DNA of 64,000 bases from Tubulanus polymorphus (Eukaryota; Animalia; Nemertea), in contig NW_027437453.1 of the NCBI RefSeq assembly GCF_964204645.1, forward strand, positions 38,863 to 102,862. The letters are read 5' to 3'. Made by a program: the position numbers and the translations under genes. Below are positions 1 through 55,346 of this stretch, piece by piece. How positions within the stretch are numbered: position 1 is the stretch's first letter; every line of letters starts with the position of its first letter. Under the pieces are notes generated by a model. The model worked only from the letters and a program-made list of their open reading frames with translations, had not been told where the DNA came from and did not search any database.

Positions 1-136
1 ATAATTTCTGTGATTCATTTATATCAGTTAATTTCTTTTTCTTAGCTTTTTTTAATTCTGATGATCTTTTACCTAATTCTCTTGCCCATTTAATTTGTTT
101 CTCGGATCTAGCCTTTTTCTTAACTCCATCACTCAT
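1..136 (-). CDS. Small basic protein, partial (MSDGVKKKARSEKQIKWARELGKRSSELKKAKKKK...)
   Basis: ATG at 136 overlaps the stop of the 129..731 ORF by 8 nt; frame open to the window edge; not in the ORF track. Confidence 0.55.
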   Translation of the reverse strand, partial: MSDGVKKKARSEKQIKWARELGKRSSELKKAKKKKLTDINESQKL

Positions 137-731
137 TTATTTTAGTTAATTTTTGTTCTGATTCATTTTCTGTTTCGATGTTTTGTTGTAGTACATCTGT
201 TTCGTTCTTACCTGATTTATATTCCATATTCTTGATGTTCGAAAATGTTATGACGCCAGTAGAAATTAATGTCATAACCGATCCTAATTGGAATGAAGCA
301 TAACCGACCCATTTTTGTAATTCAGTCATAACTAAGTAGTCATTTTTCAAATCATTATATAATTTATTTTCATCATCAATTGGTATTAACTGGTTACATA
401 ACTTAGAATAACATTTGACAATACCATCTGAAATAGAATCATTTATTCTAGCTAATCTTGACTCTTCATAAATCTTAAAATATTTTATTACTTTTTCTTT
501 GTTCATATTATCTAATTCTTGAAAAGTTATTGTTTTACCAATAAACTCTTTAGTTTTTCCACTCGCAATCAATAGTTCTAGATGATGTTTACAATATAAG
601 TAGTATTCATAATCTATATTGTTATTAACTTGAATAGAATTAGTTACAACTGTATCTTTATTATCACTTATACCCAAATCATCTAATGTTTTTTCAATAT
701 CAATACTATTCTTATTAGATTTCTTTGACAT
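129..731 (-). CDS. Hypothetical 200-aa protein resembling conserved ORFs of invertebrate Polinton-like viruses
   Basis: Intact intronless ORF; LIASGKTKEFIGK..ELDNMNKEKVIKYFKIYE pattern with a hydrophobic C-terminal helix; family assignment is from recall only. Confidence 0.55.
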   Translation of the reverse strand: MSKKSNKNSIDIEKTLDDLGISDNKDTVVTNSIQVNNNIDYEYYLYCKHHLELLIASGKTKEFIGKTITFQELDNMNKEKVIKYFKIYEESRLARINDSISDGIVKCYSKLCNQLIPIDDENKLYNDLKNDYLVMTELQKWVGYASFQLGSVMTLISTGVITFSNIKNMEYKSGKNETDVLQQNIETENESEQKLTKINE

Positions 732-1034
732 TTATATTAGAGGAAAAAAGCAAAAAAAAATATTTTAAGTATTCTTCAAATGATACTAGATAGTTAAAGT
801 TAAAGAACTCTAGTATTGACTACTGATACTAGCTATTTGAATTTAAAGAATTTCTATTTGAATCTATTCAAAATATAAAGTATTCTTTTTTGAAAAGAAA
901 ATATTAAAAATATAATAGAATTCACAAGCTAGTTGAAGTTATTGTTTTTTAAATATTTTTTATTTAAAATCTATTTGATATCTCACTACTTTTGTTTATC
1001 TATTAGGAGCAGTAGTTATAACTGTCCAGATAAG

Positions 1035-1709
1035 TCATTTCGGATCCTTGATATCAAATTCCTCAACGTATTGTTCATTCTGTGGGTTACTATTCCACCA
1101 ATCAATAAATTTCCTTGCTTTATTCAACTGTTCCAAATATAATTGTAAATCTAGTTTATTAGATTTGATTTGATTTTCTTTCTTTTCTAAAGGCCTTAGA
1201 TTCTTCCAATTCCAAATAAGTTTTTTATTGTATTCATCATTCATGTTAAATTTAGATATTGGTAACACGTGATCAATATGGTAATAATCCCCATAATTAT
1301 CTATATTCATTTTATCATCGAATTGATATATTATCCATGATTTGAGAAATTCATCTGAACAACCCAATAAATTAGATAGTGTTTCTGAATGTGTTTCTTT
1401 GTTGAATAATTGTGTTAATCTAGACCTTAAGCATTGTTTCAATCTAAAATTAAGATCTGTTTGATATCTTTCTCTCATATATTCTGTCATATAATCATTA
1501 TAATGTTCTCTATTATCTTCTCGATATTGTTTGGTGTATAGTTTAGTACAAGTTTTACAACAATATTGAAAACCATCTTTGCTAATCTTACGCTTACTAA
1601 ATTCTGTTAATGATTTATCTAATTCACATTTAGAACACTTCTTGTAGTATATGTTTATAACACCAGTGTTATTTGTAATATTGATAATTTGTGGTTCTTC
1701 TGGTTCCAT
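1035..1709 (-). CDS. HNH/EndoVII-like endonuclease with N-terminal CxxC..CxxC zinc module (DNA-virus type)
   Basis: KKCSKC...CCKTC zinc motif; YHIDHVLPISKF...NLRPLEKKENQIKSNK beta-beta-alpha-metal motif. Confidence 0.8.
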   Translation of the reverse strand: MEPEEPQIINITNNTGVINIYYKKCSKCELDKSLTEFSKRKISKDGFQYCCKTCTKLYTKQYREDNREHYNDYMTEYMRERYQTDLNFRLKQCLRSRLTQLFNKETHSETLSNLLGCSDEFLKSWIIYQFDDKMNIDNYGDYYHIDHVLPISKFNMNDEYNKKLIWNWKNLRPLEKKENQIKSNKLDLQLYLEQLNKARKFIDWWNSNPQNEQYVEEFDIKDPK

Positions 1710-1867
1710 TTATTATACATATTTTTTCACTAAATTGGTTAATATTTTAGAATCCTCTTCCATTTCTTCGACCAACGTCATCCTTTTTCATTCTTCGTTG
1801 CTTTTGATAAGTTGTTTCGATTCCTTGATATCTAAATAATACCACTGGGCAAAACCGCTCTTATAGG

Positions 1868-2115
1868 AGCGCTTTTGCTTAATGCGCATGCGTTAATCAT
1901 AATTATATATTCATTCTGTAAATTCTGTAAAATAGAAACGACCGACATAAAATATCAAAACGTGTTCGCATTAAGCAAACCGCGCATTCATGCGCGCTTT
2001 TGCTTAATGCGCATGCGCTAATCATAATTGAAACGAATTATTATTGAAACGACTGAACATAAAAATTCACCAAACAGATTTACACAATACATTATACAAT
2101 TTGTTCAGTCGTTTC
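1868..2115. promoter_or_regulatory. Cluster of direct and inverted repeats inside the virus-like arm
   Basis: ~36-bp direct repeat GCGCTTTTGCTTAATGCGCATGCG(T/C)TAATCATAATT at ~1868 and ~1994; hairpin at 1967-2011; 14-bp inverted repeat at 2046-2059/2102-2115. Confidence 0.5.
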
Positions 2116-2824
2116 TTCCAATACATCATTTGATTTCTATAAATACAATTTATAATTACAAACATTTTTTCAATTGCTGGTAAATATTTAACTACATCAA
2201 CAAATGTTAAACTTAATCATTGGAGTCTTAATGTTTTTGAAATTCTTATATAGTTTCTTCGACGATCTTTTGGCGATTCTTGTGTTTCTTGTGCTAATTT
2301 CTATTGGTTCGATATCCATTGCTGTTGATTCCTCAGTCAGAAAGAGTATCTTGAGTTTCTCTATCACTTCTTGATGCGTATGGCGTTTTATTAATCTAAA
2401 AGATATTAGCGGTAACTCTAGCTATCTAAAAGATATACTAAATACACTTAAATATATCTAAAGGTTTCATATTTAATAGTCTTAATAACTACAACAAACA
2501 GTACTTACATTTAGATTTATAATTGTAAACTATAAACTCCTAATTTCGTTTCGAAAGATAGAATATCCTGAGCACAATATTACAACGTATATCCATTTCC
2601 GGGGCGATTTCTAGAATGAACACGTCGTTGATTATGCCACGTCATCTAGTTCGGGTTTAGAGTGTTCTACACGTTTCTGATTATGACGCGTCATAATGTC
2701 TCGTCGTTATAGTAACAACTGTAACAGCTGTGAATTTATAGATTTATTCTATAGCTCTGTATATTGAATGTATATAGGCTAAAATAGAATCATTTTCTAG
2801 TATAAACATCATATCCTCAATGTA

Positions 2825-3016
2825 TTATTCATTATTTGGATCAGTGTTCCATAATTCAATAAATTTCTTTCCTTTTGTTAACTGTTCTGAATATAACTGT
2901 AAATATTCTAGTTTCAATTTATTCTCTAAATGTGTTATAGTTTTATTGTGTCTTGCTTTTTGAGACTTATCTATATTTATCTTACATGTTGGGCAGTAGT
3001 ACTTATTTGCTTCCAT
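2825..3016 (-). CDS. 63-aa C2H2-like zinc-finger protein
   Basis: YYCPTC...RHNKTITH; C-terminal tail homologous to that of the HNH ORF. Confidence 0.55.
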   Translation of the reverse strand: MEANKYYCPTCKINIDKSQKARHNKTITHLENKLKLEYLQLYSEQLTKGKKFIELWNTDPNNE

Positions 3017-3100
3017 TTTAATACTATATTTTTTATTAAAATTGATTTTAGAAGTTCAATGATTTAAATGTTATTCATATATATATGAATATTTTAAGAG

Positions 3101-3364
3101 TAATAGGGATAATAGGCTTTCAAGCTAAAGGTTGAACGGGCGGGTGAGTAAAAATGAAAAACATAAAAATAATAACAATTTCTACTTGAATTAGGAGTGA
3201 AACTCATGAAAATGAAAAATAAATTCGAGCGTGTGAGAATTTATTTTTCATTTTTATGAGTTTCGCGAGTAATTCAAGTAGAAATTGTTATTATTTTTAT
3301 GTTTTTCATTTTTTAACGAGCTCGACCGTTCGACCTTTGGCTTGAAAGCCTATTATCCCTATTA
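3101..3364 (+). repeat. 264-bp imperfect palindrome (hairpin): arms ~126/128 nt, 10-nt loop
   Basis: TAATAGGGATAATAGGCTTTCAAGC...GCTTGAAAGCCTATTATCCCTATTA; arms 3101-3226 and 3237-3364. Confidence 0.95.
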
Positions 3365-3787
3365 GTGTTGTGTATTTTGTTAGTAGCTGGGTGTGTGCAA
3401 AACAAAGCATTCAGGGTCCAAGTTCAAATTCTGTCAAAGAAATGATTTTATTTCTTTAGTTTGGTTTGCTTCTTTATTAACGAAATTAATTGAATATCCG
3501 TTTGGTTGAATGACAGGACTTCATTTCATCTGATCTCTATTCTTGTGTAGGCCTATAGGCAATAACGAGCGTCAGGAAATAAACAGTCAATCTTTACTAC
3601 AATGCTGCATCAGTGCTTTGACTTATATTATAAATCTCCAGCAATAATTTATCATATGTATATGGAGATGATGATGCCCGCACAAATACCCGTGCCTAAA
3701 TCCGTATTATCGGGGTACTAAATGGTCTGATCGCTTTTGTTTTATATGGCGAATTAATCGAATTCAATCGAAAAACATACCCCAAGC

Positions 3788-3823
3788 AATATTGTTTCTG
3801 AAGTATACTTCAGAAACAATATT
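3788..3823. repeat. Perfect 36-bp spacerless palindrome
   Basis: AATATTGTTTCTGAAGTA|TACTTCAGAAACAATATT. Confidence 0.95.
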
Positions 3824-5825: not shown

Positions 5826-8418
5826 GTGTCAATGTGAAATGTTTCACATATTATTTGATATATTTTCATGATATAGAATATCCATTCTATTTGTTTTGTT
5901 GTATGAAACCGGAACGTTCAATCATAAGTCCAATCTAATTGGCTCATACTCATAACAATGATAATCATATCTAATTTAACTCATTGTGATCGAAACTCAC
6001 TGAACATAGGCCTATTATTTAGATAAAACGAAACTTGCTTAAACTAGTGGATTAACATAGTGGATTTTCCATCTGAGTTCTATAAGGGTTTCTATTTTCA
6101 AGAAAATGAACAATTGAATCAAACGACCAATTGTAATTACTATACGAAAATTAAAATATCATTTGGTTTAATCTGATCACACCATTCTCGCATCAGAATT
6201 ACCACGAGCACCGGCTAAAACTATTAATCTAAATGTGATATTTCTTAGTGATGACACAACTATTTCGAATCAGTTGCAATGCCGCCTACTACTGGCCTGA
6301 TAATTCACATTATTTTGTAAATAACTTTCACATGGTTCGCTCTTTCTTCGAGACCATGCATTTGACCGCTGTAAAGACTTTCTTTGTAGGCCTATACTAG
6401 AGCATTTTATTTATAATTCCGTAACATTAGGACATAAAGCTATATAGACCGATAGCGACCAGGCCATTCCGTCTACCCGATAATACCTATTGCACATGGA
6501 CACTTAAACGAACTTCAATAATACACGCACTATACATCACTGCTGGATATTAAGAACACTTAAAAGTCAGTGTATACATTGAACATTCTCAGATTCGTGA
6601 TTATTTGCTACTTATGTCCTTTCTAGCTATTACATGGGCATATACAAATCATCTTTGTTATCGATTGAAGGTGATATGGGATGGCTACCGGTATTTATTA
6701 GGCATCGTATTGAGGTTTTGCGCCTATGGTTTCGTCTTTGTAATATGCCAGATACTAGATTAACCAAACATTTGTTTCTCTATGATGATGAACAGGCCTT
6801 TATTGGCAAAGCTAATTGGTGTTCATTCGTCAAGTCAGTTCTAACTGAATGTAATATGGAATATTTTTATGAGAACATCTATTCTAAATACCCATCAAAT
6901 CAAAAAGGTTTTGAATGATATTAGAATAATTTTATATAGAAACTATGCAATAACGTGGTCAAGAAATGTTCCTCTGCAATCAAAACTCCGTACTTATACC
7001 GTACTTAAGCCAAAATTTGGAACAGAAGACTATGTCAAATTACACACATCACGTTCAAACCGCTCCACAATAGCAAGGTTAAGAAATGGTACTTTCCCCT
7101 TGAACATAGAACTAGGTCGCTACCGTAATTTGCCAATTGAACAATATGTGTTGCATGTACAGCGAATGAAGTTGAAACAGAGGAACATTTCTTGTGCACT
7201 TGCTACAAATACGTTGATCTACGTAATGACCTCTTTTCTAAGATCAATGGTATCCTAGAACTAGATATCAATCTTTTGTCTAATGCCGTAAAAACTAAAA
7301 TTCTACTAAGTAATAGTCGTATCGTAAGTGTTTGCGGATTCATATCAGCCGCAATGAAACTTCGAAATTCTAAATTCTTTATTCTTAATCCAATGTCACA
7401 TGTTTGTTGTACTTGTAAATGTCAATGTGTCTTGTAAGCCTTATTATAGGCTGGCTTGTTTATCGAGATGACACGTTAATAAATATATATATTTATATAC
7501 ACTAATACAGATAAAAGAGCTGACATTCTATCTTTAATTAGTATTCAATCACCATCACTCTCATATAGCAATAGATCCGCTCGCGTATTGTGAATCACTT
7601 TGAAAATAACCCGACAGTGGAAAAAGTATAATACACTGTGTCATAAAAGATCCAGTTGCGAGACGATACTGCGATTCAGCTAAACAACTTTTCCATCAAC
7701 CCGTTAATAGAAATAAAAGCAAAAGTACATTTAGAATATATCAAAAACATCTGAATGTTTTGCTTTGCATGCTAGTAACAAAATAGATAACTGATTAGTG
7801 TTGAACCAGTTCCTTTAGGAATAAAATGAAAAGCTTATTTTGTGGTAGTAGTTCATGTCACGTAAATTCTGTTATGGCTTGTTTAACTGAAAACTTTAAT
7901 AATATCTATAATGCTGGGTATATATATATACACGTACGTGGGTAAGATGATAATTGTTCCGTATAATTTCCTACCGGTAAACTTTTATTCATTTATCAAA
8001 AGTTTTATTAATTCAATTTCGTGGGCGATTCCTTGGCGGGTTTTGAATATTAACGTCGTGTCAAAATGAGGTCCGCAAATTATTTGAGTAATTGAGTCTA
8101 TTGGGTCATGGTGGAGATGGGAAATTATCGAAGGCTGGGATTCCGACATTCCATGTCAAAATGAGTTCCCGGAACTCACTGTTGCTGGGTTTTTGGAAAC
8201 GCTCGCCATCGAGGATGGGAATTTGATTATACTGGTGTCCGTTTTGTGCAAATCAATGACATAATAACCCAACATCGCCTATTCTAAGCCGGCTTGAAAA
8301 TGAGGTTAAGTGGTTCCCGTGGCTTCAATTCAAAGAAAACAGGTTTTCATCTACTTCAAAATTAAGCCGAAAACAGGGAAATTAACTGTATTTTCCTTAT
8401 TTGTCGCATACACCCTTT
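5826..8418 (+). repeat. Segmental duplicate, copy 1 (matches 18662-20409; carries a LINE insertion)
   Basis: Highly similar from GTGTCAATG to TTGTCGCATACACCCTTT in both copies. Confidence 0.92.
6647..7494 (+). mobile_element. 5'-truncated non-LTR retrotransposon (ORF2 C-terminus, RTE-X/CR1-L2-type), frameshifted
   Basis: GDMGW..RLWFRL..KLRTY..ARLRNG..LNIELGRY..C..C..EEHFLC motifs across three frames; AATAAA and (TA)n tail; ATATACA duplicated at 6640-6646 and 7495-7501; empty site at ~19471. Confidence 0.88.
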
Positions 8419-12030: not shown

Positions 12031-12927
12031 TCAGACGTTTCTGGCCAGTAAGAAGTTTTCCAGTGTCATAGGCAACATCGGGAACCCATAACTATATACG
12101 ACATGTTTACGGATGACATCCTGGATTTGTGCGCGCAACGTTTCTGCTAAGGTATCTAAATCTAGGCCAGTGATAAACGTCGGTATCGCGTGGCACATTT
12201 GACGAATGGCTGCTTCCTGTTTGTTGACGCATAATCTGGCTGTTTTCAGAGCTAGGTGCATCAGAAGTGCGGCCTCATCGGTGGAGCGCGAAACCACCTT
12301 CATCTTAGCCGCTTTCATGCGTAGGAGTTCATCTATGTCATATCGAATGAAGGGAATGGATTGACCGTCATCGGCGAGAGCTTGGATTTCTTGACAAACG
12401 CTGAAAACCTTTTCATTCGTCGTAGAAGTCAGGAACACTCGTCCACACTCGTTAGCTAGCTTATAGAGCGACACATCCAAACATTCTGCCGGATTGTCCA
12501 AGTATTAGAGCACGTGCGAAAAAATTATCAAATCATAGAAGTCATTTGGTAAGAAAGAAGGCGCCTCCTCGCTAGAGAACTTACGTTTATAGACCTCGGA
12601 TTCGAGGTTGTACTTGCTGGCGAGTGTATTCATTCGAGTCTCCAGCTCCCGTGCCATAGCGTCGTTTGGTTCAATACAGTCCATGCGTTCGAAACTCACT
12701 TCATCGCCGAGTTCGGTCACCACGTCTTCCAACAAATATCCGTGAGCCGAACCGACTGATAGCAGCCTCAAACCTCTCCACCTGCTATTGTCTGTTGCCG
12801 ACAGTTTGTCGCTAGAAGACTTACGGACAGCGCGAACGGCTTCACATAATCGCTTCGGTCCGAAATTATTTTCGCTGTGATGCAAACGAAATGATCGGAA
12901 AGCTTCGCTGTATTTTAGATCATTCAT
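12031..12927 (-). pseudogene. Intronless class I SAM-dependent methyltransferase (histamine N-methyltransferase-like) with one in-frame premature stop
   Basis: ORFs 12505..12927 and 12031..12501 share a frame and are split by TAA at 12505-12507 within HVL*YLDNP (expected HVLYY); motifs LLSVGSAHG, DCIEPN, YDLIIFSH. Confidence 0.75.
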
Positions 12928-13180
12928 CTTCCTGTCCTGAAGTGTCGTCTACCAAAGAGAAAATATGTTCTGGTCGAAACGAACGTCCGAAGATAATGAC
13001 GGAATCGGTAGAGAACAATCAGAACTAGCTTTCTGCGCTGCTATAATGCAAATTCTAGTTCAACTACACCGATTATTCCTAAAGCACCATATTGTTGGGT
13101 ATTATTGCTTTCTATGCATGAATATAAAGTAGTATAAGGCCAAATAAAAAAAGTTCTTTTTCGTTACATAAGCTCCATAT

Positions 13181-16100
13181 TCAGATTCGACAGCTAATCG
13201 GTAATAAACGCTCATGTATTATAACCACGTCACCAGTTTTCACGGTGTTAGCTTTCGCGCCATTTTTCTTAATTTCGTTTGCGTGGCGTTCACGCAGTAC
13301 TGCGAGGTACTCATTTTTGAAGCGCTTCTGAAAGTGTCGAACTATTTGCGCTCGGTGAAACGCCATTTTTTGAAGAGACTGGCTAACTTTACCTTGACCG
13401 AATTCTGGGTCGAAAATTTCGGTCTCATCGATACTTTCACACGGAATCAATTCGACTTCGCGACCAAACAGTAACGAGTTCGGTGTTATGGGTTTGATAT
13501 CCTCGATCTCTGTCGGGATGACGGTTAAGGGGCGGTTATTTATCGTAGCTTGTATTTCTTTAATCAAGGTTTGTAATTCGTCTAATGATACTTGTGCATG
13601 TGCTAGAACCTTTTTAATAGCGGTTTTGACGATGCCGATGCATCTTTCATGCATCCCCGCCATCCACGGCGCTTGGACCGGAGTATATTTAAACTTCATT
13701 CTTTTATCCGCGTAGATTTTTTGTGCGTTGTCGGATGAAGCGATTTCATACAGACGTTTTATCTCAACCTCCCCCGCGATGAAGGTCTTTGCGTTGTCCG
13801 AGTATATAATATTCGGAGCCGAATAAGAACTACAGAAGCGTCGGAATGCCCTGATGTAAGAATCAACGGTTGCGTCTGTAACTATCTCGAGATGAATTGC
13901 TCGAGTCGTACAGCATGTGAAAAGACAAATATAAACTTTATTTTCGCCGCGGACGTATAAATGGCCAGTAAAGTCGATGGCCGTAGCGGTGAATGGTTTT
14001 AGCTCATTGAGCCTGAAACTGGGTAATGGTGGTGGTGGTGGTGGTGCTAGATATGGGCGACCGTACAATCTTTTGCATGTCACGCATTTCCTCAGTATTT
14101 TCTTTGCTAGAGATCTAAGAGATGTGATCCAGAAACGTTTGCGGACTTTGTTGACTGTCATTCCTGTGCCGTAGTGAAATACCGATTCGTGTGCATCCCT
14201 GACAATTAATGACGCTAGGTACGACTGGTTTGGGATGAGAATGGGTTCTTTCCGTGCTTGGGTTATTTCAGCATTTCTGAGCCTGCCAGCACATCTCAAT
14301 GTTCCTTTCGCATTGCGATAGACCCCTAATTGTCGCACTATAGTCGGACACTTTGATGTCTTGTGGGTGAAGTAAGAGTGGTCTTCCGGATATTCCTTCA
14401 GTTGGACACTTTGTATCCAGATGACTTCTGCCTCCCGTATATCGTCTGCTGAAATGATGTTTTTAGATTTTAACCCTTTTCTGAAGGCTCGTTTGACCAA
14501 CGCGGTGACCCGTAATAGTCTTCGATAGTCAGTGAAGTCCTGAACCTGTATGATCTGGTCTATACCAGTAATTTCCGCCTGACCGGTCCTTGTCTGGAAT
14601 TCGTTTTCAATCTCTAGGCTAACGACGAGTATGACCGAGGTGTCTGGTTGGTCGTCGGGAGGTGGTTCGTCTTGGTTTTCCATCCACTCTGGGCCAGTAA
14701 TCCACATTGATCTCATGAGCTCGTCATATGTGGCCCCTCTCGAAAGGATGTCTGCTGGATTTAGCTTCGACGGTACGTGCTTCCACTCATGCACATTGCA
14801 GAGCTGTTTAATCGCTGTAACTCGATTTTTTACGAACACTTTAAGTTCCTTTTCTGATTTCAACCAGTACAGGGCTACAGCTGAGTCTGTGAAATAATGA
14901 TTGTCAATGCCCGCGTATTCCTTCTCGTAGATTCTTCTGATTGAATCGGCGTATTTCGCTGCCATAACCATGCCCTCTAATTCAAGGTTTGGGACTGTTC
15001 ACCCGGCCTTTGCTTTAGAGATGACCTTGTTTTTCGAGCCTATGAGACGTATTTTGTTGCCTTGCTTTCCATATATAACACAGCCTACCGCACTATTTGG
15101 GGCTGCGTCGCAAAATACCATAAGTTTAATCGGTGACTCGTTGTCGAATCCGAGCCACCTCGGAAATTCGATCTGATGAGTCTGATTTAGATTGCTGTGA
15201 ATGATGCTCCATTCCTTTAGCTCGCTTTGGTCTAATTCTTGATCCCACTCTTTGGACGACTGCCAGAGTTTGTTGATAAACACCTTAGCAGTAACTGTAA
15301 CTGGAGCAACCAGACCTAGTGGGTCAAATAATGCCGCTGTGCGTGATGCGACCTTTCGCTTTGTTATGGTGGCTTCAGTCTGTGTCATTGATTTCCTGGC
15401 TATAGTTATGACGTCATTATCTGCATTCCAGGTCATTCCTAGCAGTGGCACTGATGTTGTATCTCTCACATGGATATCTCGGTTGGTTGCCTTTTTCATT
15501 AGGAGTTGAGAGTTAGATGCCCACTGCCTCAGTCTGAAGTTACCCCGTTGCATTATCTCCATAGCTTCTTCGAAGTATTCAGATACTTGGTCTTCTTTGC
15601 TTAATGTACTGAGTAGATTGTCAACGTAGAGTTTCATACCCATGTCCTGTGCCACCCACGAGTCTCGGTGGGCGTCAAAGTGTTTCGACAGGACAGCCGC
15701 CAGCGTGAATGGGCTCGCCGTAGATCCAAATATGACAGTATTATGTTGGTATGGGACGATGCCCTTCGATGGATCGTTATCCTTATACCAAAGGAAACGT
15801 ACGTATCGTCTATCTTTCTCCGCTAGTTGGACTGACAAAAAGGCTCGGGCGATGTCGGCTGACATAGCGACTACACCCGTTCTGAACTGCATGATCAGTG
15901 AGGGCAGATCCACCAGCATATTGGGCCCTTGGTATAAACAGTCGTTCAGTGAGGGTGAACCTGCGCTCGCGTCAAATACTATTCTCAGTGGAGTTGTTGG
16001 GCTGTCTTTCATGATGAAGAAGTGTGGGATGTAATAACAACCCTCTTCCAACAAGGCTTGGTCTGGGTTTGGGATTTCCGAGACAGTTCTTCTCAATATG

Positions 16101-18355
16101 CTCTTGCATCACCTTGGTGTATGCGCCCATAAGTTCAAGGCGTTGTAGACGATTAGTTACTTGTTTTAATCTGTACCTACTCTGGGTTAGATTGTTTTGA
16201 AGTTCTGAGTGGTCTTCCTTCCATGGTAGCGGTGCGTAGTAGCAGTTATCCTTGTACTGGATTTTCTCTTTATAATCCTCTAAGAATATATTATCCTCTA
16301 TGCATCCTTGATCTTCGAAATGGCCAGGGAATTCGGCGGTATTATTCCTCAGGAATTCGTTGAGTATCGTGTCACTAAATTTTTGGTTAGCATCCCCGAT
16401 CTCTAGCATATCAGAAACTGCGGTAAGCGTGAATGCATGTGGATTGTGGTCATCTTTGTACTACGGACCATAAACAAAACAACCGAGATTAGAAAATTGG
16501 ATGATTGGCCCACCGGGGATATTTTCCGTACGGTTTTCGAGGAATAAATATAGTGACCGCAACCGATTAATATATCCACGGTGAATAACTCAGCTTCGAA
16601 ATTATCCGCGAGGTGGTCTAATCTAGATATTTCCGGAAACTCAAGACATTCGGCCCATCGTTTGCGATATATGGGCTTAACGATTTCATTCGATATGGCG
16701 ACATCGATATGTATCGTACCTTCGGTGGTAACGATGTCATACACGCGTTTTGAAGTATGACCCCCAAAACCATTTACGGTCAACGATCGTTGGTAGCGCG
16801 GTTTTAACCCGTGAGCGGTGGCTATATCCTTGCGGATGTAACTGAGCATGGAACCGTGGTCGAGAAGGAGATTTGCATTTTTAAACTTATGACCATTATT
16901 TTCCAGATTAATTTGGCCCGTTTCCAACAAAACTATATCGCTGGGAGCAACGGCAGCCTGAATCGCATTGCTTTCACAAGTATATTCCGATTGATTTTCG
17001 CATGTATATTCCGATTGATTTTCGCATGTATTTTCCGACTGATTTTCGCATGTATATTCCGTTGTTTGATTCGACAAACTTTCGCATGTTTCGCTCACAA
17101 TCTCGTGATTGTGGACTCGATTCGCATTTGGTTCGATTAATCCAATGTTTGTGTTTTTGTTTTGTATCGCTGCGCATCCAGTAGTAGTAGTTAAATTATC
17201 TCTGTGTAGACTCGTGTGGTGTTGTCTGTTGCACTTCATACATCTACCCGAATTCCGGCAATTTTTTACTCAATGGTTCGGTTTCAGGCAATTAATACAC
17301 AGTTGCCTCTCTTCAGTTTTCGCTTTTCGATTTTCGAGATTTAGATGACATCTGGTAGGTCCATGTTCTCCGTCGCAGAATGGACACTGGTATCTTCGCT
17401 GGTTTCCGACAAAGGACGTAGTTGTCATTCTCGGTCGCTGTTGGTTAGACGATGTTGATGTGATTTCTCCAATGTTTTCAAGTTGTTCTTCGAATTTCTT
17501 AATAAATTCATCGAGTTCAAAATCACCTGCTTGGCCACATGTGCCCATCTTTTCGAGAAAGACTCTCGGGATTTTCTTTTCCATTGATGTGACAATAAAT
17601 GAAGCACATGCGTTGACATCTACGCCCAGGTGTTGTAGAGATCGAATGTTGGCGTTGGCTTGATTGACGAATTGTGATAGAGACGCAAAGTTCATAGCCG
17701 CTGGTGGTAATTCGTGAAGGTTGTTTACGTGAGCGCGAACTATTTTACGTTTCTGTCCGAATCGATCCGTGAGTATTGATATTAAGGAGTCCAAATTAGA
17801 ACCGGACGCGTGGATACCCTTAACGGCATCAAGTGCGTTACCTCTCAGCTGCCCGATTATGTAGTTAAATTTAGTGATTTGTGAGAATTTACCCATCAAT
17901 ACGTCAGCTTGTATTGTCTCCCAAAATGATGTCCAATCAGTATAATTCCCGCTGAACGTTGGTAATTTCAGTTTGGGTAACTGCGCGGTCTTCTGGGTGT
18001 CGGTATCCTGGATCTGCTCAAGCTTGGTGTTCTGATGATTACGATTTTCGAGGTACTTTTTTATTTTCAAGAGTCCTATGCGTTCCTGGCTGCGTCTTTC
18101 ATTCGAATCTTTGATTTCTTTTTCGAATTCATCGTCGTCTTTTCGCATTTCTTGGATTCTTTCTGCTAACGTTTCTCTGGATTCGTGGACCAGTCGCATC
18201 TCGTCTAATCGTGCTTCGATTTCGGTTGCATCGTCTTCTGCGATATTGACTTCTTGCATAAGTATTAGGATTCGCTCGTAGTTCGTATCAAATGTGTCGA
18301 TATCCGCATTTCTTCGTTTTCGGAGCTGGTCCAGCGTTTCTTTTTCTTTTGGCAT
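13181..18355 (-). pseudogene. BEL/Pao gag-pol polyprotein broken by several frameshifts
   Basis: Gag LPKLKLPTFSG plus zinc knuckles; protease LLLDHGS; RT DIARAFL and YVDN; RNase H VFCDAA; IN HHCC, DFTG, SDNAKTF, HERCIG; probable ATG at 18355. Confidence 0.9.
16973..17096 (-). repeat. In-frame 24-bp tandem repeat (TCENQSEY-like x4-5) between Gag and protease
   Basis: TTTCGCATGTATATTCCGATTGAT units. Confidence 0.85.
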
Positions 18356-18386
18356 TTCTGATCGTCTAGAGGTTTTGGTTTGTGTA

Positions 18387-18404
18387 ATCCTGGTCACGGC
18401 ACCA
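18387..18404 (-). promoter_or_regulatory. Primer-binding site complementary to the tRNA-His 3' end
   Basis: TGGTGCCGTGACCAGGAT directly after the LTR-terminal ACA. Confidence 0.9.
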
Positions 18405-18661
18405 TGTCGTTACGAGTGTAACGGTGGAGAATTGAACATAGAAAAACGTGACTGCTTGGTTAAGATATCATAGCAAGAGTGTCCTTTATTTTACGTAATG
18501 ATAACAAAAGAGTATAGTACGCATGCGCGGGCCAGCAAAGATGAAGAGAAACCGCAGATATAAACCAGATGTAAACAGCTATATGCATGAATAGAATTAG
18601 TAACGCTTGACTTCAATATAGTTATGTAAGTTGGGTGAGAATTGGGACGCAGTTTCCGACA
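18405..18661 (-). repeat. 5' LTR (257 bp)
   Basis: TGTCG...CGACA termini, AATAAA on the minus strand, adjacent PBS, sharp junction with the duplicated segment. Confidence 0.88.
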
Positions 18662-20409
18662 GTGTCAATGCGAACTGTTTCACATATTTGATATATTTTC
18701 ATGATATAGAATATCCATTCTATTTGTTTTGTTGTATGAAACCGGAACGTCCGATCATAAGTCCAACCTAATTTGGCTCATTCTCATAACAATGATAATC
18801 ATATCTAATTTAACTGATTGTGATCGAAACTACACTGAATATATTAATATATTATTTAGATAAAACGAAACTTGTTTAAACTAGTGGATTAACATAGTGG
18901 ATTTTCCATCTGAGTTCTATAAGGGTTTCTATTTTCAAGAAAATGAACAACTGAATCAAACGACCAATTGTTATCACTACACGATAATTAAAATATCATT
19001 TGGTTTAATCTTATCACACCATTATCGCATCAGAATACCACGAGCACCGGCTAAAAATATAATTCTAAATGTGATAACTCTTAATGATGACACAACTATT
19101 TCGAATCAGTTGCAATGCCGCCTACTACCATGGCCTGATAGTTCACATTATTTATAAATAACTTTCGCATGGTTCGCTCTTTCTTCGAGACCATGCATTT
19201 GACCGCTGTAAAGACTTTCTTTGTAGGCCTATACTAGAGCATTTTATTTATAATTCCGTAACATTACAACATAAAGCCACATAGACCGAAAGCGACCAGG
19301 CCATTCCGTCTACTCGATAATACCTATTGCACATGGACACGAACTTCAATAATACACACACTATACATCACTGCTGGATATTAAGAACACTTAAAAGTCA
19401 GTGTATACATTGAACATCCTCAGATTCGTGATTATTTGCTACATATGTCATTTCTAGCTATTACATGGGCATATACACTAATACAGATTAAAGAGCTGAC
19501 ATTTTATCTTTAATCAGTATTCAATCACCATCACTATCATATAGCAATAGATCCGCTCGCGTATTGTGAATCACTTTGAAAATAACCCGAAAGTGGAAAA
19601 AGTATAATACACTGTGTCATAAAAGATCCAGTTGCGAGACGATACTGCGATTCAGCTAAACAACTTTTCCATCAATTCCGTTAATAGAAATAAAAGCAAA
19701 CAATGCATTTAGAATATATCAAAAATTTGAATGTTTTTGAACATTTGAATGTTTTGCTTTGCATGCTAGTAACAAAATAGATAACTGATTTGTGTTGAAC
19801 CAGTTCCTTTAGGAATAAGATGAAAAGCTTATTTTTTGGTAGTAGTTCATGTCACCTAAATTCTATTATGTCTTGTTTAACTGAAAACTTTAATAATATC
19901 TATAATGCTGGGTATATATATACACGTACGTGGGTAAGATGATAATTGTTCCGTATAATTTCCTACCGGTTAACTTTTATTCATGTATTAAAAATTGAAT
20001 TAATTGAATTTCGTGGTCGATTCCTTGGCGGGTTTTGAATTCTTAATGTCGTGTCAAAATGAGGTCCGCAAATCATTTGAGTAATTGAGTCTATCGGGTC
20101 ATGGTGGAGATGGAAAATTATCGAAGGCTTGGATTCCGACATTCCATGTCAAAATGAGTTCCCGGAACTCACTGTTGCTGGGTTTTTGGAAACGCTTGCC
20201 ATCGAGGATGGGAATTTGATTACACTGGTGTCCGTTTTGTGCAAATCAATGACATAATAACCCAACATCGCCAATTCTAAGCCGGCTTGAAAATGAGGTT
20301 AAGTGGTTCCCGTGGCTTCAATTCAAAGAAAACAGGTTTTCACCTACTTCAAATTTAAGCCGAAAACAGGGAAATTAACTGTATTTTCCTTATTTGTCGC
20401 ATACACCCT
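18662..20409 (+). repeat. Segmental duplicate, copy 2 (no LINE); lies upstream of the ParB-like gene
   Basis: Matches 5826-6646 plus 7502-8418. Confidence 0.92.
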
Positions 20410-35650: not shown

Positions 35651-35839
35651 GGTGGCATACGAGAGACAATTTTTTTTAACTATTTCCACTTATAATGTCG
35701 AATTTCGACATAATAAATCAACATTCGACTTAATAAGTCGAATACCAACTTAATAAGTGGAATTAAGAGTTAATAAAGTCGAAATTTGACTTATTAAGTT
35801 GAAATCGACTTGTTATTAAAGATTATCTCGTATGTCACC
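35651..35839. mobile_element. Nested palindromic MITE
   Basis: GGTGGCATACGAGA...TCTCGTATGTCACC with internal CGACTTAATAAGTCG repeats. Confidence 0.6.
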
Positions 35840-38818: not shown

Positions 38819-40750
38819 AAACAATTTATCATTTCAACTGTCAAACAATTTATCATTTCAACTCTCATACAATTTATCATTTCAACTGTCAAACAATTTA
38901 TCATTTCAACTGTCAAACAATTTATCATTTCAACTGTCAAACAATTTATCATTTCAACAGTCGAACAATTTATCATTTCAACTGTCAAACAATTTATCAT
39001 TTTAACTGTCAAACAATTTATCATTTCAACTGTCTAACGATTTATCATTTCAACTGTCAAACAATTTATCATTTCAACTGTCTTATCATTTCAACAGTCG
39101 AACAATTTATCATTTCAACTGTCAAACAATTTATCATTTCAACCGTCAAGCAATTTATCATTTCAACTGTCAAACAATTTATCATTTTAACTGTCAAACA
39201 ATTTATCATTTCAACTGTCTAACAATTTATCATTTCAACTGTCAAACAATTTATCATTTCAACTGTCTTATCATTTCAACAGTCGAACGATTTATCATTT
39301 CAACTGTCAAACAATTTATCATTTCAACTGTCAAAAAATTTATCATTTCAACTGTCAAACAATTTATCATTTCAACAGTCGAACAATTTATCATTTCAAC
39401 AGTCGAACAATTTATCATTTCAACTGTAAAACAATTTATCATTTCAACAGTCGAACAATTTATCATTTCAACTGTCAAACAATTTATCATTTCAACTGTT
39501 AAACAATTTATCATTTCAACTGTCAAACAATTTATCATTTCAACTGTCAAACAATTTATCATTTCAACTGTCAAACAATTTATCATTTCAACTGTAAAAC
39601 AATTTATCATTTCAACAGTCGAAAAATTTATCATTTCAACTGTCAAACAATTTATCATTTCAACTGTTAAACAATTTATCATTTCAACTGTCAAACAATT
39701 TATCATTTCAACTGTCAAACAATTTATCATTTCAACTGTCAAACAATTTATCATTTCAACAGTCGAACAATTTATCATTTCAACAGTCGAACAATTTATC
39801 ATTTCAACTGTCAAACAATTTATCATTTCAACTGTCAAACAATTTATCATTTCAACTGTCAAACAATTTATCATTTCAGCTGTCTTATCATTTCAACTGC
39901 CAAACAATTTATCATTTCAACTGTCAAACAATTTATCATTTCAACTGTCAAACAATTTATCATTTCAACTGTCAAACAATTTATCATTTCAACTGTCAAA
40001 CCATTTATCATTTCAACTGTCAAACAATTTATCATTTCAACTGTCAAACAATTTATCATTTCAACTGTCAAACAATTTATCATTTCAACTGTCAAACAAT
40101 TTATCATTTCAACTGTAAAACAATTTATCATTTTAACTGTCAAACAATTTATCATTTCAACTGTCTTATCATTTCAACAGTCGAACGATTTATCATTTCA
40201 ACTGTCAAACAATTTATCATTTCAACTGTCAACAAATTTATCATTTCAACTGTCAAACAATTTATCATTTCAACTGTCAAACAATTTATCATTTCAACTG
40301 TCAAACAATTTATCATTTCAACTGTAAAACAATTTATCATTTTAACTGTCAAACAATTTATCATTTCAACAGTCGAACAATTTATCATTTCAACTGTCAA
40401 ACAATTTATCATTTCAACTGTCAAACAATTTATCATTTCAACTGTCAAACAATTTATCATTTCAGCTGTCTTATCATTTCAACTGCCAAACAATTTATCA
40501 TTTCAACTGTCCAACAATTTATCATTTCAACTGTCAAAAAATTTATCATTTCAACTGTCAAACAATTTATCATTTCAACTGTCAAACAATTTATCATTTC
40601 AACTGTCAAACCATTTATCATTTCAACTGTCAAACAATTTATCATTTCAACTGTCAAACAATTTATCATTTCAACTGTCAAACAATTTATCATTTCAACT
40701 GTCAAACAATTTATCATTTCAACTGTCAAACAATTTATCATTTTAACAGT
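38819..40750. repeat. 24-bp minisatellite, ~80 copies, with higher-order structure
   Basis: ACAATTTATCATTTCAACTGTCAA units with recurring variant and 17-bp truncated units. Confidence 0.97.
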
Positions 40751-40824
40751 CTATTAGATATTTTAATCATTTAACTCAATTCAATAATTATTTGACTATT
40801 TAATTTATTTCTAATGTAGAATTG

Positions 40825-41475
40825 TTACTCTTTACGCCAGTTTTTATGTTTAATTGTTTCATAATGCTTTGATTTATGTGATTTTGAATATTTACCTCCG
40901 CAATAACAATGAATTTTTTCATTAGAATTGAATTTTCTAAATTCATCATCTAAATTACATTGAACTGCAATATCTTTATATGATTTTTCATTATCTAATT
41001 CACATTGAATTCCAATATTTGATGAATTTTCATTATAGATAATTTGTTTATTATCAAAATTGAAATAATATAATTGTCTTTCTGCAATTCTTAAGTTAAT
41101 CAAATCATTGTAATCTGTTGAAAGTATTTTATCACCTTTTCTTTCATTGAAAGGGGTTTGAAGTATATTTATTATGTTTTCATCTAAAGTTCCTTTAAAA
41201 TTAAAAACTGTATTGAACATTTTAGGATTTTTGATTCCATTATCAAAAGTATCTACTAGTTCAGTAATTAAATATGTTTCATTTGATAATATTTGATTAA
41301 TCATAGTTATGTTATCGATTTTATAATGTCTTGCGGACACTAAATTTGTTGCTGAAATATAATTTCTAATGTTAAACTGTGAAAATGATTTATTGGTTTC
41401 ATTGATTTCGATTTTAAAGTTGGGTTCTTCTTCTTCTTTCTTCATTTTTATAACAAAATTTTTATTAAAACTCAT
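40825..41475 (-). CDS. 216-aa virus-like protein with a C-terminal CxCGGKY..H..H zinc finger
   Basis: Intact intronless AT-rich ORF; IHCYCGGKYSKSHKSKHYETIKH; same position relative to the hairpin as ORF 2825..3016. Confidence 0.65.
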   Translation of the reverse strand: MSFNKNFVIKMKKEEEEPNFKIEINETNKSFSQFNIRNYISATNLVSARHYKIDNITMINQILSNETYLITELVDTFDNGIKNPKMFNTVFNFKGTLDENIINILQTPFNERKGDKILSTDYNDLINLRIAERQLYYFNFDNKQIIYNENSSNIGIQCELDNEKSYKDIAVQCNLDDEFRKFNSNEKIHCYCGGKYSKSHKSKHYETIKHKNWRKE

Positions 41476-41512
41476 TCAAATATAAATATTCACTGTTTTA
41501 AATATGAATTAT

Positions 41513-41720
41513 TTCACTCACACTTTACTCACACTTTTAATGTTTAAAAATCTAACTCATACAAATATAAATATTGAAATATGTTTAAAATATAAACTAT
41601 TTCACTCACACTTTACTCACACTTTTATATTCTTTTAGTTATCCATTTATTTTACTCATATTTTTACTCGAAATCTGTTAAAATATGAATTATTTCACTC
41701 ACACCTTACTCACACTTTTT
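41513..41720. promoter_or_regulatory. Three copies of TATTTCACTCACACTTTACTCACACTTTT between the ORF start and the hairpin
   Basis: Copies near 41513, 41600 and 41693, ~90 bp apart. Confidence 0.5.
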
Positions 41721-41725
41721 CTAGC

Positions 41726-41880
41726 GAGTAGAAAATGAAAAATAAATTCGAGTGTGCGAAAAGTCTTTTTCATTTTTATGAGTTTCGCGAGTAATTCAAG
41801 TAGAAATTGTTGTTATTTTCATATTTTTTCATCTTTTACGAGCTTGACCGTTCGACCTTTGATCTAGAACAACTAAACCC

Positions 41881-41883
<3 letters not shown>
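41726..41883 (+). repeat. Second, partial copy of the terminal hairpin (inner left arm, loop, right arm)
   Basis: GAAAATGAAAAATAAATTCGAG...TTTTTCATTTTTATGAGTTTCGCGAGTAATTCAAGTAGAAATTGTT...GACCGTTCGACCTTTG...CCCTAT, homologous to 3208-3362. Confidence 0.9.
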
Positions 41884-42897
<1,014 letters not shown>

Positions 42898-50100: not shown

Positions 50101-51842
50101 ACTTAGCACGCGCTGTATGCGAATCAAAATCTAAATCTAAACAGTTAGATTTGGATGTGGCATTTTAATGATGTGAACATAAACATTCACTTACTTTTGC
50201 TGTCGTAAGTGTTTTTCTCGATACTTGAGTACTTTCTTGCGTTTTTTCTTATTTTTGGTCGCCTGTAGGAGATCTTTTACCTTAACGCACTTGTCACACT
50301 TTGAAAATCTACCGACCTGAAAATAGTTATGATAATAATCTATTACTTCTCTCCAGGATTGCTCAAACTCGAATCGATTTGAAATACACTTAAAATGAGA
50401 ATGTTACAGCATGCAGTAAAAAGAAGAATTATACCTTCGGGATAGAAACGTTCTCGAAATGATTTCTCCACAAATGATAAAAGTGTGATTCAGAACAAAC
50501 ATTATCTGTGCCTAGTTCTTCTTCACACATTCTGAACACGTCCCCTTTTGTAAGGCAGGATGGTAGATGCAGCTTCTCCTGGTTTGGCAATTTGTCAGCA
50601 AACTTTTCGCAGTATTCCCGTAGCCAAGCCATTGTAACTTGACTTGCCGATGTAAAACTACCCGATCTTGATATACCAGGAGGAGATATAGATTTTGCGC
50701 TACCTAAAATTGAAGAGAAATAGTCAGATTTTTAATCAGACAGTCTAAGATACGTTTCTAACATCCTCAGATTAAAATATCATTTTATAAGTATACCACC
50801 AGTATTCGTAATCCAAATAATTTCCGAGGAGAAAGTATCTATGAAAGACTTATGTCTTAGTTGTGTGGAAATTATTAGTATGTATGAAATATCTCATTAT
50901 GAGATGTTGGATGAATTAACAAAATAAGAGAGATATGAGAGGTTAATGTTTATTTTAGAATGACAAAATTCGAGAAAACTGAGACCCGAAAGTGAAAAAC
51001 AAAGATGCAACATACCTTCAGTAAATTCTCGTTTAATACTGTAGTATCTTGACTTCTTTATTCCTAAGGCTAACATCCAAGCCCGTGAGCAGGTTTTAAA
51101 AGCACCAATTGTGAAAATCACGTTTAGACTATCGGTATCAGTTTCTATAGAGTGATGTAGAAGGTAGTCTAGGATGAATTGTTTTTGCTCATACATTTTT
51201 AATGACTGAAAGTCGGATCTAACGTCGGATATTTTTTGCAAGGGAATTTCAGCTAAGCACCATTCATCGCAGCAGTGTGTTGAGCATAGCTTGTTGACAG
51301 GTATGAGACAGCGAGTTGCTGGAAAAAAAACAAAATCATGTTCGTTGGCTGAAACTTTGTTTGCGACCGTTTGGCCCCATATAAATTGTTTATGCCCGCT
51401 TTTTGCCTTAACATTAGTTTATAGGAAAATTCACTGCCACACAAAAAAAAATTCTCAAGACACTTCCCTGCGGCGACATAGCTAGTCTCGTACGAATATA
51501 TAGATTCTAAGTTTAAAGATGATGATAGACACACCGACAGACCTTACCGCTTTTATCATTAGACAAATTCTTGAGGTGAGTTGTCTTTGCTTTTTTTGTA
51601 GATCCTATTGGACGTCCTCGTTTGCGTTTAAGACCTATTGTAATATATAGTTAGATAGACATTAAAATCCCCGACATGCGATAGATTTACTATACTACTA
51701 TTTCAGATAGAAATGATCAGTTTTCAGAAGCCCAAAGGACTCAGTTTCACATTAAAGTTGAGCTTACCAGAGCTAATTGCTGGCGGCAGATTTTCTTCAT
51801 TTTCATCACTTTCACTGAGATCTGAGTCTCTAAATGGATCAT
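47111..51842 (-). CDS. Spliced Sola1-like (DUF7869-type) DDE/D transposase with AT-hook and C-terminal Tudor/PWWP-like domain; first exon lies further upstream
   Basis: Phase-consistent exons 51768-51842, 51548-51634, 51016-51318, 50435-50703, 50195-50316, 48541-49451, 48246-48400, 47111-47455; motifs KRKRGRPIGS, HCCDEWCL, FSKCDKC, IIDGMDQ, LQMDNCWRDNKN, FLMVGHTHEDIDQ. Confidence 0.82.
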
Positions 51843-55120: not shown

Positions 55121-55346
55121 CTGAAGTGATAGATATGAAAATAGTATTACTTCTATACGGTATTTTTCACTTGAAAAAAAATAGAAAGATGATTTTTGTC
55201 TTTCATAGACCGGTCATTGCTTTCCTGACTGACATGCAACTAAATAATGTTAATTATGACGAATTGAAAAATTAACCCAAACGTAACTTATAAAACCATG
55301 TCAGTATAGTAGGCCTAGTTTAACCACATGTAGGTTGGGCTGTAAA

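What the first reader, a model, noticed from the sequence alone, without database searches (positions are those of the whole stretch)
1..3364. Endogenous virus-like element with a defined hairpin terminus, found twice in the window
Seen: intronless, co-oriented AT-rich ORFs (basic protein overlapping a 200-aa protein, HNH nuclease, zinc finger) all read away from a 264-bp hairpin, beyond which virus-like ORFs stop. The same layout (zinc-finger ORF, AT-rich spacer, hairpin, end at CCCTAT) recurs at 40825-41883 with a different ORF. Known: Polintons and adintoviruses end in protein-primed TIRs, whereas incompletely paired terminal hairpins mark poxvirus/ASFV, parvovirus or protelomerase-type replicons. 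Inference: a mid-size animal DNA virus or transposon lineage with hairpin ends and a variable terminal gene, which does not fit the standard Polinton model.
Basis: partly seen in the sequence, partly recalled or inferred. Interest (0 to 1): 0.85.

Follow-up and report, generated by a model that had tools for sequence, protein, structure and literature searches.

The report
Polinton end with mirrored hairpin tip
This is the end of a many-copy virus-like jumping element whose genes match, in order, those of Polinton (Maverick) elements, and whose last 268 bases hold a mirror copy of its own tip that likely arose by fold-back copying and would let the single-stranded end pair with itself during replication.

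Summary
The hairpin is real (3101-3364; z -24.9) and marks the true end of a multicopy integrated element: 2,040 reads leave at 3364 into mixed flanks. But the element is a Polinton/Maverick, not a hairpin-telomere virus. A metagenome contig has the same genes in the same order (zinc finger, HNH, 200-aa ORF, basic ORF) with a protein-primed-type polymerase and rve integrase; sister contigs add packaging ATPase and a probable double-jelly-roll capsid. The hairpin's inner arm is an inverted copy of the tip (5'-AGTAAT, near the known (AGT)2 motif). It is not a free MITE: it is tied to the element's interior in reads, and four base pairs vary in mirror fashion on both arms. The window copy lacks the polymerase at its usual place; about 44% of copies share that junction. 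'Found twice' is only partly right: copy 2 shares 133 bp and has no long hairpin. Terminal palindromes are reported for protist virophages/PLVs (2026 preprint), and this scan noted two other Polinton ends with hairpins. I found no paper on them in animal Polintons. Function untested. Verdict: new variant of a known kind, moderate interest.

The parts
1..136 (-). 5' part of a basic ORF (45 aa visible, runs off the window); overlaps the stop of the 200-aa ORF; its homologues are followed by the rve integrase in L002/L003
129..731 (-). 200-aa conserved Polinton-associated protein of unknown function (helical; no Pfam or PDB match)
   Evidence: 8 close homologues, 53-68%; 295 clusters at E<=0.001; 71% to L002; no family
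1035..1709 (-). 224-aa zinc-binding HNH/endonuclease VII-like nuclease; 58% identical to the ORF directly behind PolB in L002
1710..2800 (.). spacer without a long ORF, with a 53-bp direct repeat (1852-1904/1977-2029) and a palindrome at 1960-2060; multicopy (depth 450-760 over 1961-2800)
2825..3016 (-). 63-aa chimeric ORF: 5' part matches the zinc-finger gene upstream of PolB in L002, 3' part (2814-2903) matches the 3' end of HNH genes; junction at about 2903, read as the scar of a deletion across PolB
   Evidence: 745 reads leave at 2903
3099..3224 (+). inner arm of the terminal palindrome; begins 5'-AGTAATAGGG, an inverted copy of the element's tip
3225..3234 (.). 10-nt loop
3235..3366 (+). 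outer arm, ending at the element's true end (3364-3366)
   Evidence: depth falls from 2,770 to about 100; 2,040 reads leave into mixed flanks
40825..41475 (-). second fragment: 216-aa ORF with a C-terminal zinc finger like that of an ORF in related contig L006; otherwise no homologue
41469..41883 (+). second fragment's terminus: three 46-bp repeats, short core palindrome (41732-41776), 133 bp shared with the loop and outer arm of copy 1, then a microsatellite at the tip; no inner copy of the tip

Best explanation
This is the end of an integrated, many-copy element whose genes match Polinton/Maverick contigs in order, and its last 268 bases contain an inverted copy of its own tip that was likely made, and is likely renewed now and then, by fold-back copying during end replication and would let the single-stranded end pair with itself as a local replication end. 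Shown: the hairpin, the end point, many insertion sites, the tie between inner arm and interior, mirror variation, hairpins of other lengths, and synteny with a PolB/rve contig. Inferred: (1) the family replicates by protein-primed strand displacement and integrates by rve integrase like other Polintons; (2) a strand that starts at the tip and folds at the short core palindrome (as in copy 2) copies itself back to the tip, which explains why the inner arm stops exactly at the terminal AG; (3) the folded end gives a duplex origin, or a paired 3'-OH, without needing the far TIR. The window copy belongs to a subfamily that likely lost PolB by a deletion joining the zinc-finger gene to an HNH tail, and is likely copied in trans. 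Odds: Polinton identity about 0.92; fold-back origin of the hairpin about 0.7; a working role in replication about 0.45.
For: Synteny and identity with L002 (zinc finger 68%, HNH 58%, 200-aa ORF 71%, basic ORF; PolB of 1241 aa between zinc finger and HNH). L003 continues with rve (PF00665, 36.4 bits, cut-off 32.6), A32 ATPase (PF04665, 49.4, cut-off 22.8) and a 415-aa probable capsid. Sharp end with mixed flanks: 2,040 of 11,763 laid reads have loose ends behind 3364, agreement 0.38. Depth just inside the hairpin (2,022 at 3070-3090) equals depth at 3109 (2,102), and no loose-end row before 3099 is among the 6 shown for that run (smallest shown 358). Of 23 listed variable places in the hairpin, 18 are paired; 8 form 4 mirror pairs in which an A-T pair is a G-C pair on both arms at like frequency (50/51, 50/46, 69/39, 69/57%), 2 more turn a G-T wobble into a full pair. 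A centre-symmetric 64-bp shortening (191 reads) and a strand switch near the centre (82 reads) keep a hairpin. Maverick end motif (AGT)2; terminal palindromes next to TSDs in protist virophages/PLVs.
Against: No core gene of the element lies in the window; membership rests on contigs from other samples. No related contig reached a terminus, so the hairpin is shown in one host species only. Copy 2 has the end without the long hairpin, and depth falls to 1,026 at 3133-3153, so at most about half of the interior-linked copies keep a window-like full inner arm: the long hairpin is not obligatory. 8 of the 18 paired variable places give a wobble or mismatch against the window's partner letter (partner rows may be among the 111 hidden). 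150-nt reads cannot phase the two arms, and some may be laid on the wrong arm (173 of 11,763 flagged). The arms of the window copy differ by 14%, so they are not recopied at every cycle. What the 745 reads leaving at 2903 lead to in this host was not seen.
Confidence: 0.6

Rival explanations
1. Polinton end as above, but the palindrome is a neutral by-product of occasional fold-back or repair at the end, carried along inside the TIR with no role.
For: Copy 2 and several read variants lack most of the inner arm (joints 3108/3109 to 3209/3216, 3151 to 3209); arm length is variable; mirror variation follows from recopying alone; the protist preprint names accidental annealing as an alternative.
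Against: Some inner copy of the tip is present in most interior-linked copies (depth 2,102 at 3109, 1,503 at 3123, against 2,022 just inside); shortened forms stay symmetric; long palindromes tend to be lost from chromosomes (recalled).
Confidence: 0.3
2. A lineage that has switched to hairpin-primed (parvovirus-like) replication by host polymerase, so the PolB-less copies are autonomous for priming; the HNH nuclease would nick the closed end.
For: The 3' end would pair flush with the inner arm; about 44% of zinc-finger copies share the PolB-less junction; protist palindromes go preferentially with non-pPolB elements; an earlier unchecked note reports a hairpin in a polymerase-less Maverick.
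Against: Copies that leave at 2903 (the other 56%) appear to run into the same end, so the hairpin is not specific to PolB-less copies; no flip/flop signature or terminal strand-switch joint among the rows shown; no HUH or SF3 gene among 23 ORFs of relatives scanned; complementation in trans explains PolB-less copies more simply.
Confidence: 0.1
3. The 268-bp unit is a palindromic MITE (or a mini-Polinton made of two ends) that inserted at the end of this element.
For: The unit has a tip-like sequence at both ends and its depth exceeds that of the interior.
Against: No direct repeat of 2-10 bp flanks 3099-3366; mixed flanks appear on the outer side only; depth runs on unbroken from the zinc-finger gene into the inner arm.
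Confidence: 0.05
4. One reading: an integrated virus with covalently closed hairpin telomeres (poxvirus/ASFV or protelomerase type).
For: AT-rich, incompletely paired hairpin at a genome end.
Against: The loop lies 130 bp inside the end and both arms are written in the chromosome, whereas a closed telomere has its loop at the very end (recalled); relatives have PolB and rve, no recombinase or D5 hit; no pile-up of free ends and no terminal strand switch shown.
Confidence: 0.02

Closest known systems
Polinton/Maverick elements (Polintoviricetes; adintoviruses of Starrett et al., PMC8502044; vertebrate Mavericks, PMC8097293)
   Same: Intronless genes; in relatives PolB, rve integrase, A32/FtsK-type ATPase, probable DJR capsid; tip close to the (AGT)2 motif; many integrated copies; a homing-nuclease domain inside PolB (noted for polinton PolBs in PMC11161782 passages). 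The weak PF03175 match fits the divergent 'Beta' PolB class but was not tested against references.
   Different: The outer 268 bp are themselves a palindrome with an inner copy of the tip; 'hairpin' does not occur in the main text of either paper. The window copy lacks PolB at the syntenic place. No protease was found in the partial contigs.
Halocafeteria seosinensis virophages and PLVs with terminal palindromes (bioRxiv 10.64898/2026.07.28.741278)
   Same: Palindromes inside the TIR next to the target duplication in rve-integrating elements; hairpin priming proposed there, untested.
   Different: Protist host; 52 nt in the figured subtype against 264-268 here; there linked mostly to non-pPolB replication genes, here the closest relative has PolB.
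Parvovirus/AAV terminal hairpins and adenovirus panhandle (recalled)
   Same: A single-stranded end that can fold to give a paired 3' end or a duplex origin.
   Different: No HUH Rep or SF3 helicase found; dsDNA element with integrase; bidnaviruses, which took PolB and TIRs from Polintons, do not form such hairpins (PMC4061559 passage).

Membership tests
Polinton/Maverick | [quoted passage not shown] | tested here: inconclusive
   Met in relatives: L002 ORF of 1241 aa shows Exo and Pol motifs by eye, 41% identical to L006 ORF that passes PF03175 (29.5 bits, cut-off 25.8); L002 itself had no PF03175 hit. Absent from the syntenic place in the window copy; rest of that copy not visible.
Polinton/Maverick | retroviral-like (rve) integrase | tested here: met
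   In relatives only: L003 PF00665 36.4 bits over cut-off 32.6, with chromodomain; L002 carries the same protein behind the basic ORF.
Polinton/Maverick | A32/FtsK-type packaging ATPase | tested here: met
   In relatives only: PF04665 49.4 bits over cut-off 22.8.
Polinton/Maverick | [quoted passage not shown] | tested here: inconclusive
   415-aa ORF of L001/L003/L004: Capsid_N (PF16903) in 19 of 59 homologues at E<=0.1, best 2.3e-4; Atlas hits 0.97-0.98, some clusters with Capsid_N/DJR-like families at 10-24%. Fold not obtained (pLDDT 34); no PDB sequence match.
Polinton/Maverick | adenovirus-like maturation protease | tested here: inconclusive
   No protease family among 23 ORFs of partial contigs scanned; contigs are incomplete.
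Polinton/Maverick | AG..CT end motif, commonly (AGT)2 | tested here: met
   Inner arm begins AGTAAT (5 of 6 letters of (AGT)2); its inverted copy stands where reads leave for mixed flanks. The window differs from 246 of 246 reads at 3365.
Polinton/Maverick | TIR at both ends, 5-8 bp target duplication, 13-25 kb length | not testable with these tools
   Far end outside the window; no genome held. Terminal depth 2-3 times the interior fits two ends per element but does not show it.
Hairpin-telomere replicons (poxvirus/ASFV, protelomerase) | covalently closed end with the loop at the terminus; resolvase or protelomerase | tested here: not met
   Loop is 130 bp inside the end; no terminal strand-switch among 15 joints shown (74 hidden), no free-end pile-up; no recombinase hit among 23 ORFs.
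Parvovirus-type rolling hairpin | HUH Rep/SF3 helicase; loop in flip and flop forms | tested here: inconclusive
   No HUH/SF3 hit among 23 ORFs; flip/flop cannot be read from the truncated tables.
Foldback MITE | target duplication and unrelated flanks on both sides | tested here: not met
   No flanking direct repeat of 2-10 bp; mixed flanks on the outer side only.

The most novel reading that the evidence does not exclude
An animal Polinton lineage whose ends self-prime like a parvovirus: the terminal palindrome lets polymerase-less copies be replicated by host enzymes, which would explain why a PolB-deleted subfamily makes up some 40% of the copies and would be the first hairpin-primed replication route for an animal Maverick.
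Probability: 0.12. Interest if true: 0.85.

Novelty: new variant of a known kind. Interest (0 to 1): 0.45.

Why it matters
How Polintons excise and replicate has never been shown; the model rests on pairing of the two distant TIRs. A family with hundreds of probable copies, in which the tip is mirrored locally, varies in step on both arms and coexists with hairpin-less and polymerase-less forms, is a natural test set for whether terminal palindromes are working origins. It extends a feature reported in 2026 for protist virophages/PLVs to an animal Polinton. If the palindrome is neutral, this is an ordinary new Polinton family.

Tried and rejected
No whole genome held, so no genome-wide count and no view left of the window. 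Viral contig scans found nothing: 200-aa ORF profile, 21-nt hairpin word, capsid, PolB, gapped end pattern, integrase. Prokaryote genome contigs: nothing for the 200-aa ORF; 2 short contigs for the capsid profile, not examined. Structure predictions were unusable: 200-aa ORF pLDDT 60.7/pTM 0.34, capsid pLDDT 34; no fold search was run. Atlas gave no usable hit for a homologue of the 200-aa ORF. PDB sequence searches: nothing informative. NCBIfam/PHROGs added only integrase and endonuclease VII hits. Cluster look-ups gave no informative names. The 216-aa ORF of copy 2 has no homologue at E<=0.001 among 93 candidates. No RNA holder listed; no statement on expression. A palindrome suggested at 888-969 is not significant (z -0.66). 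L004's first 124 bp resemble the A-rich arm units by eye but do not fold (z 0.2). Kapitonov and Jurka 2006 is not held; its model is cited through and PMC8097293. Rejected: cut-and-paste MITE with TA/AT duplication (the end lies beyond CCCTAT and the inner side has no mixed flanks), Helitron end (no terminal CTRR with short hairpin; relatives lack Rep/helicase hits), assembly artefact (reads of an independent 2026 run cover both arms and the junction to the interior).
Full report
1. Observation. The window begins inside an AT-rich block (GC 27% over 1-3366 against 34% in the flank) with intronless minus-strand ORFs: a basic ORF from 136 that runs off the window, a 200-aa ORF (129-731), a 224-aa HNH/endonuclease VII-like ORF (1035-1709; phrog_1035, E 1e-18) and a 63-aa zinc-finger ORF (2825-3016). 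The hairpin 3101-3364 folds at -112.9 kcal/mol, z -24.9, with 0 of 200 shuffles as stable; it has 120 pairs (114 Watson-Crick, 6 G-T) and a 10-nt loop, and its arms are 86% alike. The second copy is real but partial: 41731-41861 matches 3208-3339 at 90%, has only a short core palindrome (z -2.0; whole end z -2.4), no inner copy of the tip and a different 216-aa ORF with a zinc finger like that of an ORF in related contig L006. Both fragments point the same way, so they are not the two ends of one element.

2. The hairpin is the end of a multicopy integrated family. No genome is held, so I laid reads. In run X6 (raw genomic reads of 2026, same species label as the best holder, about 12% of the run read), depth over 1-3360 is 280-2,357 per 140-bp bin and 70-90 beyond 3500. 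At finer scale depth is 2,770 at 3343-3363 and 101 at 3385-3405; 2,040 of 11,763 laid reads have loose ends behind 3364 with agreement 0.38, i.e. many different flanks. The end is 27 times deeper than the flank, which is itself polymorphic; for an assumed genome of 0.3-1.5 Gb that is 430-2,150 ends. No place shows a pile-up of molecule ends, and none of the 15 joints shown (74 hidden) is a strand switch at the tip. Earlier unchecked notes call this genome a ribbon worm's; I did not test that.

3. The element is Polinton-like. The 200-aa protein has 8 close homologues and 295 clusters at E<=0.001. A metagenome scan gave 6 loci of 363 candidate stretches. L002 reads zinc finger, a 1241-aa polymerase, HNH, the 200-aa ORF, the basic ORF, integrase; identities to the window are 68% (28 aa), 58%, 71% and 47-64%. 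The polymerase shows exonuclease and polymerase motifs by eye and an endonuclease VII insert; it missed PF03175 but is 41% identical to the L006 ORF that passes it. L003 continues with rve plus chromodomain, A32 ATPase and, on the other strand, a 415-aa ORF. That ORF is probably the capsid: Capsid_N in 19 of 59 homologues, Atlas scores 0.97-0.98 with viral clusters, some carrying DJR families; folding failed. These are the hallmark genes listed for Polintons and adintoviruses (PMC8502044, section 3.1 and following text read; nematode preprint passages). The inner arm begins AGTAAT, 5 of 6 letters of the (AGT)2 end motif of vertebrate Mavericks (PMC8097293, section read), and its inverted copy stands at the end point. 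Against: none of these core genes is in the window, and no related contig reached a terminus.

4. The window copy lacks PolB where L002 has it. The 63-aa ORF matches L002's zinc-finger gene down to 2903 and HNH 3' ends from there on (78% to the window's own HNH tail): it joins the two genes that flank PolB in L002. 745 reads leave at 2903 into one other sequence (agreement 0.95) that resembles L002 by eye; by subtraction about 580 of 1,328 in depth (44%, rough) span the window's junction. The spacer behind it is also multicopy (depth 450-761). So a form without PolB at this place has been amplified. PolB could lie elsewhere in the copy; that cannot be seen.

5. What the hairpin is. It is an inverted copy of the tip placed 268 bp inside it. 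It is not a free MITE: no direct repeat of 2-10 bp flanks it; depth just inside (2,022 at 3070-3090) equals depth at 3109 (2,102); and no loose-end row before 3099 is among the 6 shown for X6 (smallest 358; 343 rows hidden). The arms vary in step: of the 23 variable places listed within 3099-3366 (111 rows of the table hidden), 18 are paired; 8 make 4 mirror pairs (3109/3356, 3114/3351, 3123/3342, 3165/3298) where A-T is G-C on both arms at 50/51, 50/46, 69/39 and 69/57%; 2 turn a wobble into a full pair; 4 give a wobble and 4 a mismatch against the window's partner. Shorter forms stay symmetric: a 64-bp central loss (3199-3264, 191 reads) and a strand switch at 3209/3217 (82 reads; could in part be a library artefact). 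Other forms drop most of the inner arm (joints 3108/3109 to 3209/3216 and 3151 to 3209, 29-44 reads each), and depth falls to 1,026 at 3133-3153, so at most about half of interior-linked copies keep a window-like full arm while about three quarters keep its first 25 bp (1,503 at 3123). Limits: 150-nt reads cannot phase both arms, and 173 of 11,763 reads fit two places.

6. Mechanism. Inferred: the family replicates by protein-primed strand displacement and integrates by rve. A strand that starts at the tip and folds at the short core palindrome (the state of copy 2) can copy itself back to the tip; this explains why the inner arm stops exactly at the terminal AG, why several loop positions exist and why subfamily variants appear on both arms. 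Once present, the palindrome would let a displaced strand form a duplex end locally, in place of the pairing of two distant TIRs in the standard model, or present a paired 3' end. The arms of the window copy differ by 14%, so recopying is occasional. I put a working role at about 0.45, a neutral by-product at 0.3, true parvovirus-like priming at 0.1.

7. What is known. A 2026 preprint on the protist Halocafeteria reports palindromes inside TIRs next to the target duplication in four virophage subtypes and one PLV subtype, mostly with non-pPolB replication genes, and proposes hairpin priming or accidental annealing (section read). Bidnavirus ends do not form hairpins (PMC4061559 passages). 'Hairpin' is absent from the main text of PMC8502044 and PMC8097293. 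In the listings of searches I saw no paper on terminal palindromes in animal Polintons; I read passages only of PMC11296320, PMC6431247, PMC11131425, PMC11161782, PMC2836005 and PMC3014272, none of which describes one. Subscription journals, Repbase and preprint supplements were not searchable. Two earlier unchecked notes of this scan report hairpins at Polinton ends in other genomes. Parvovirus, poxvirus and adenovirus end structures are recalled, not read.

8. Verdict. Observation partly confirmed; interpretation partly supported. A new variant of a known kind: a multicopy animal Polinton family with a mirrored tip and an amplified form without PolB at the usual place. Interest 0.45; the hairpin-primed reading has probability 0.12 and would merit 0.85.

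Noticed in passing
window 13184-18409 (-), with repeats 5852-8337 and 18685-20330: LTR-retrotransposon-like ORFs (gag, protease, RT, integrase pieces; BEL/Pao type by recalled motifs) lying between two 94-98% identical copies of a roughly 2-kb repeat.
   Followed up: no
window 54078-55166 (-): Intronless 363-codon frame with a protein kinase domain (PF00069, E 8.8e-19) and a basic N-terminal stretch; could belong to another mobile element.
   Followed up: no
window 48530-51418 (-): DUF7869 ORF (PF25273, E 3e-74) with upstream ORF pieces, probably a DNA transposon.
   Followed up: no
window 38819-40751 and 41891-42894: Copy 2 is wedged between an 82-copy 24-bp satellite and an 8-bp/4-bp/2-bp microsatellite run that starts at its tip.
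   Followed up: no
window 3788-3823 and 35651-35839: A perfect 36-bp palindrome in the flank and a 190-bp degenerate palindrome.
   Followed up: no
L003 3013-3125; L001 3542-3659; window 1960-2060: Intergenic hairpins in the related contigs between convergent genes behind the ATPase (z -8.1 and -5.9) and in the window spacer (z -3.7); may be transcript ends.
   Followed up: partly
L004 1-11483: A relative with another gene order (capsid, integrase, ATPase, 200-aa ORF all on one strand) and a deoxynucleoside kinase gene (PF01712, E 1.7e-31).
   Followed up: partly
window 12034-12948 (-): Two ORF pieces, one with a weak methyltransferase match (PF13489, E 0.004), next to the retroelement.
   Followed up: no
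L007, L008: Capsid homologues (33-39%) on short contigs binned into prokaryote MAGs, probably misbinned eukaryotic virus DNA.
   Followed up: no
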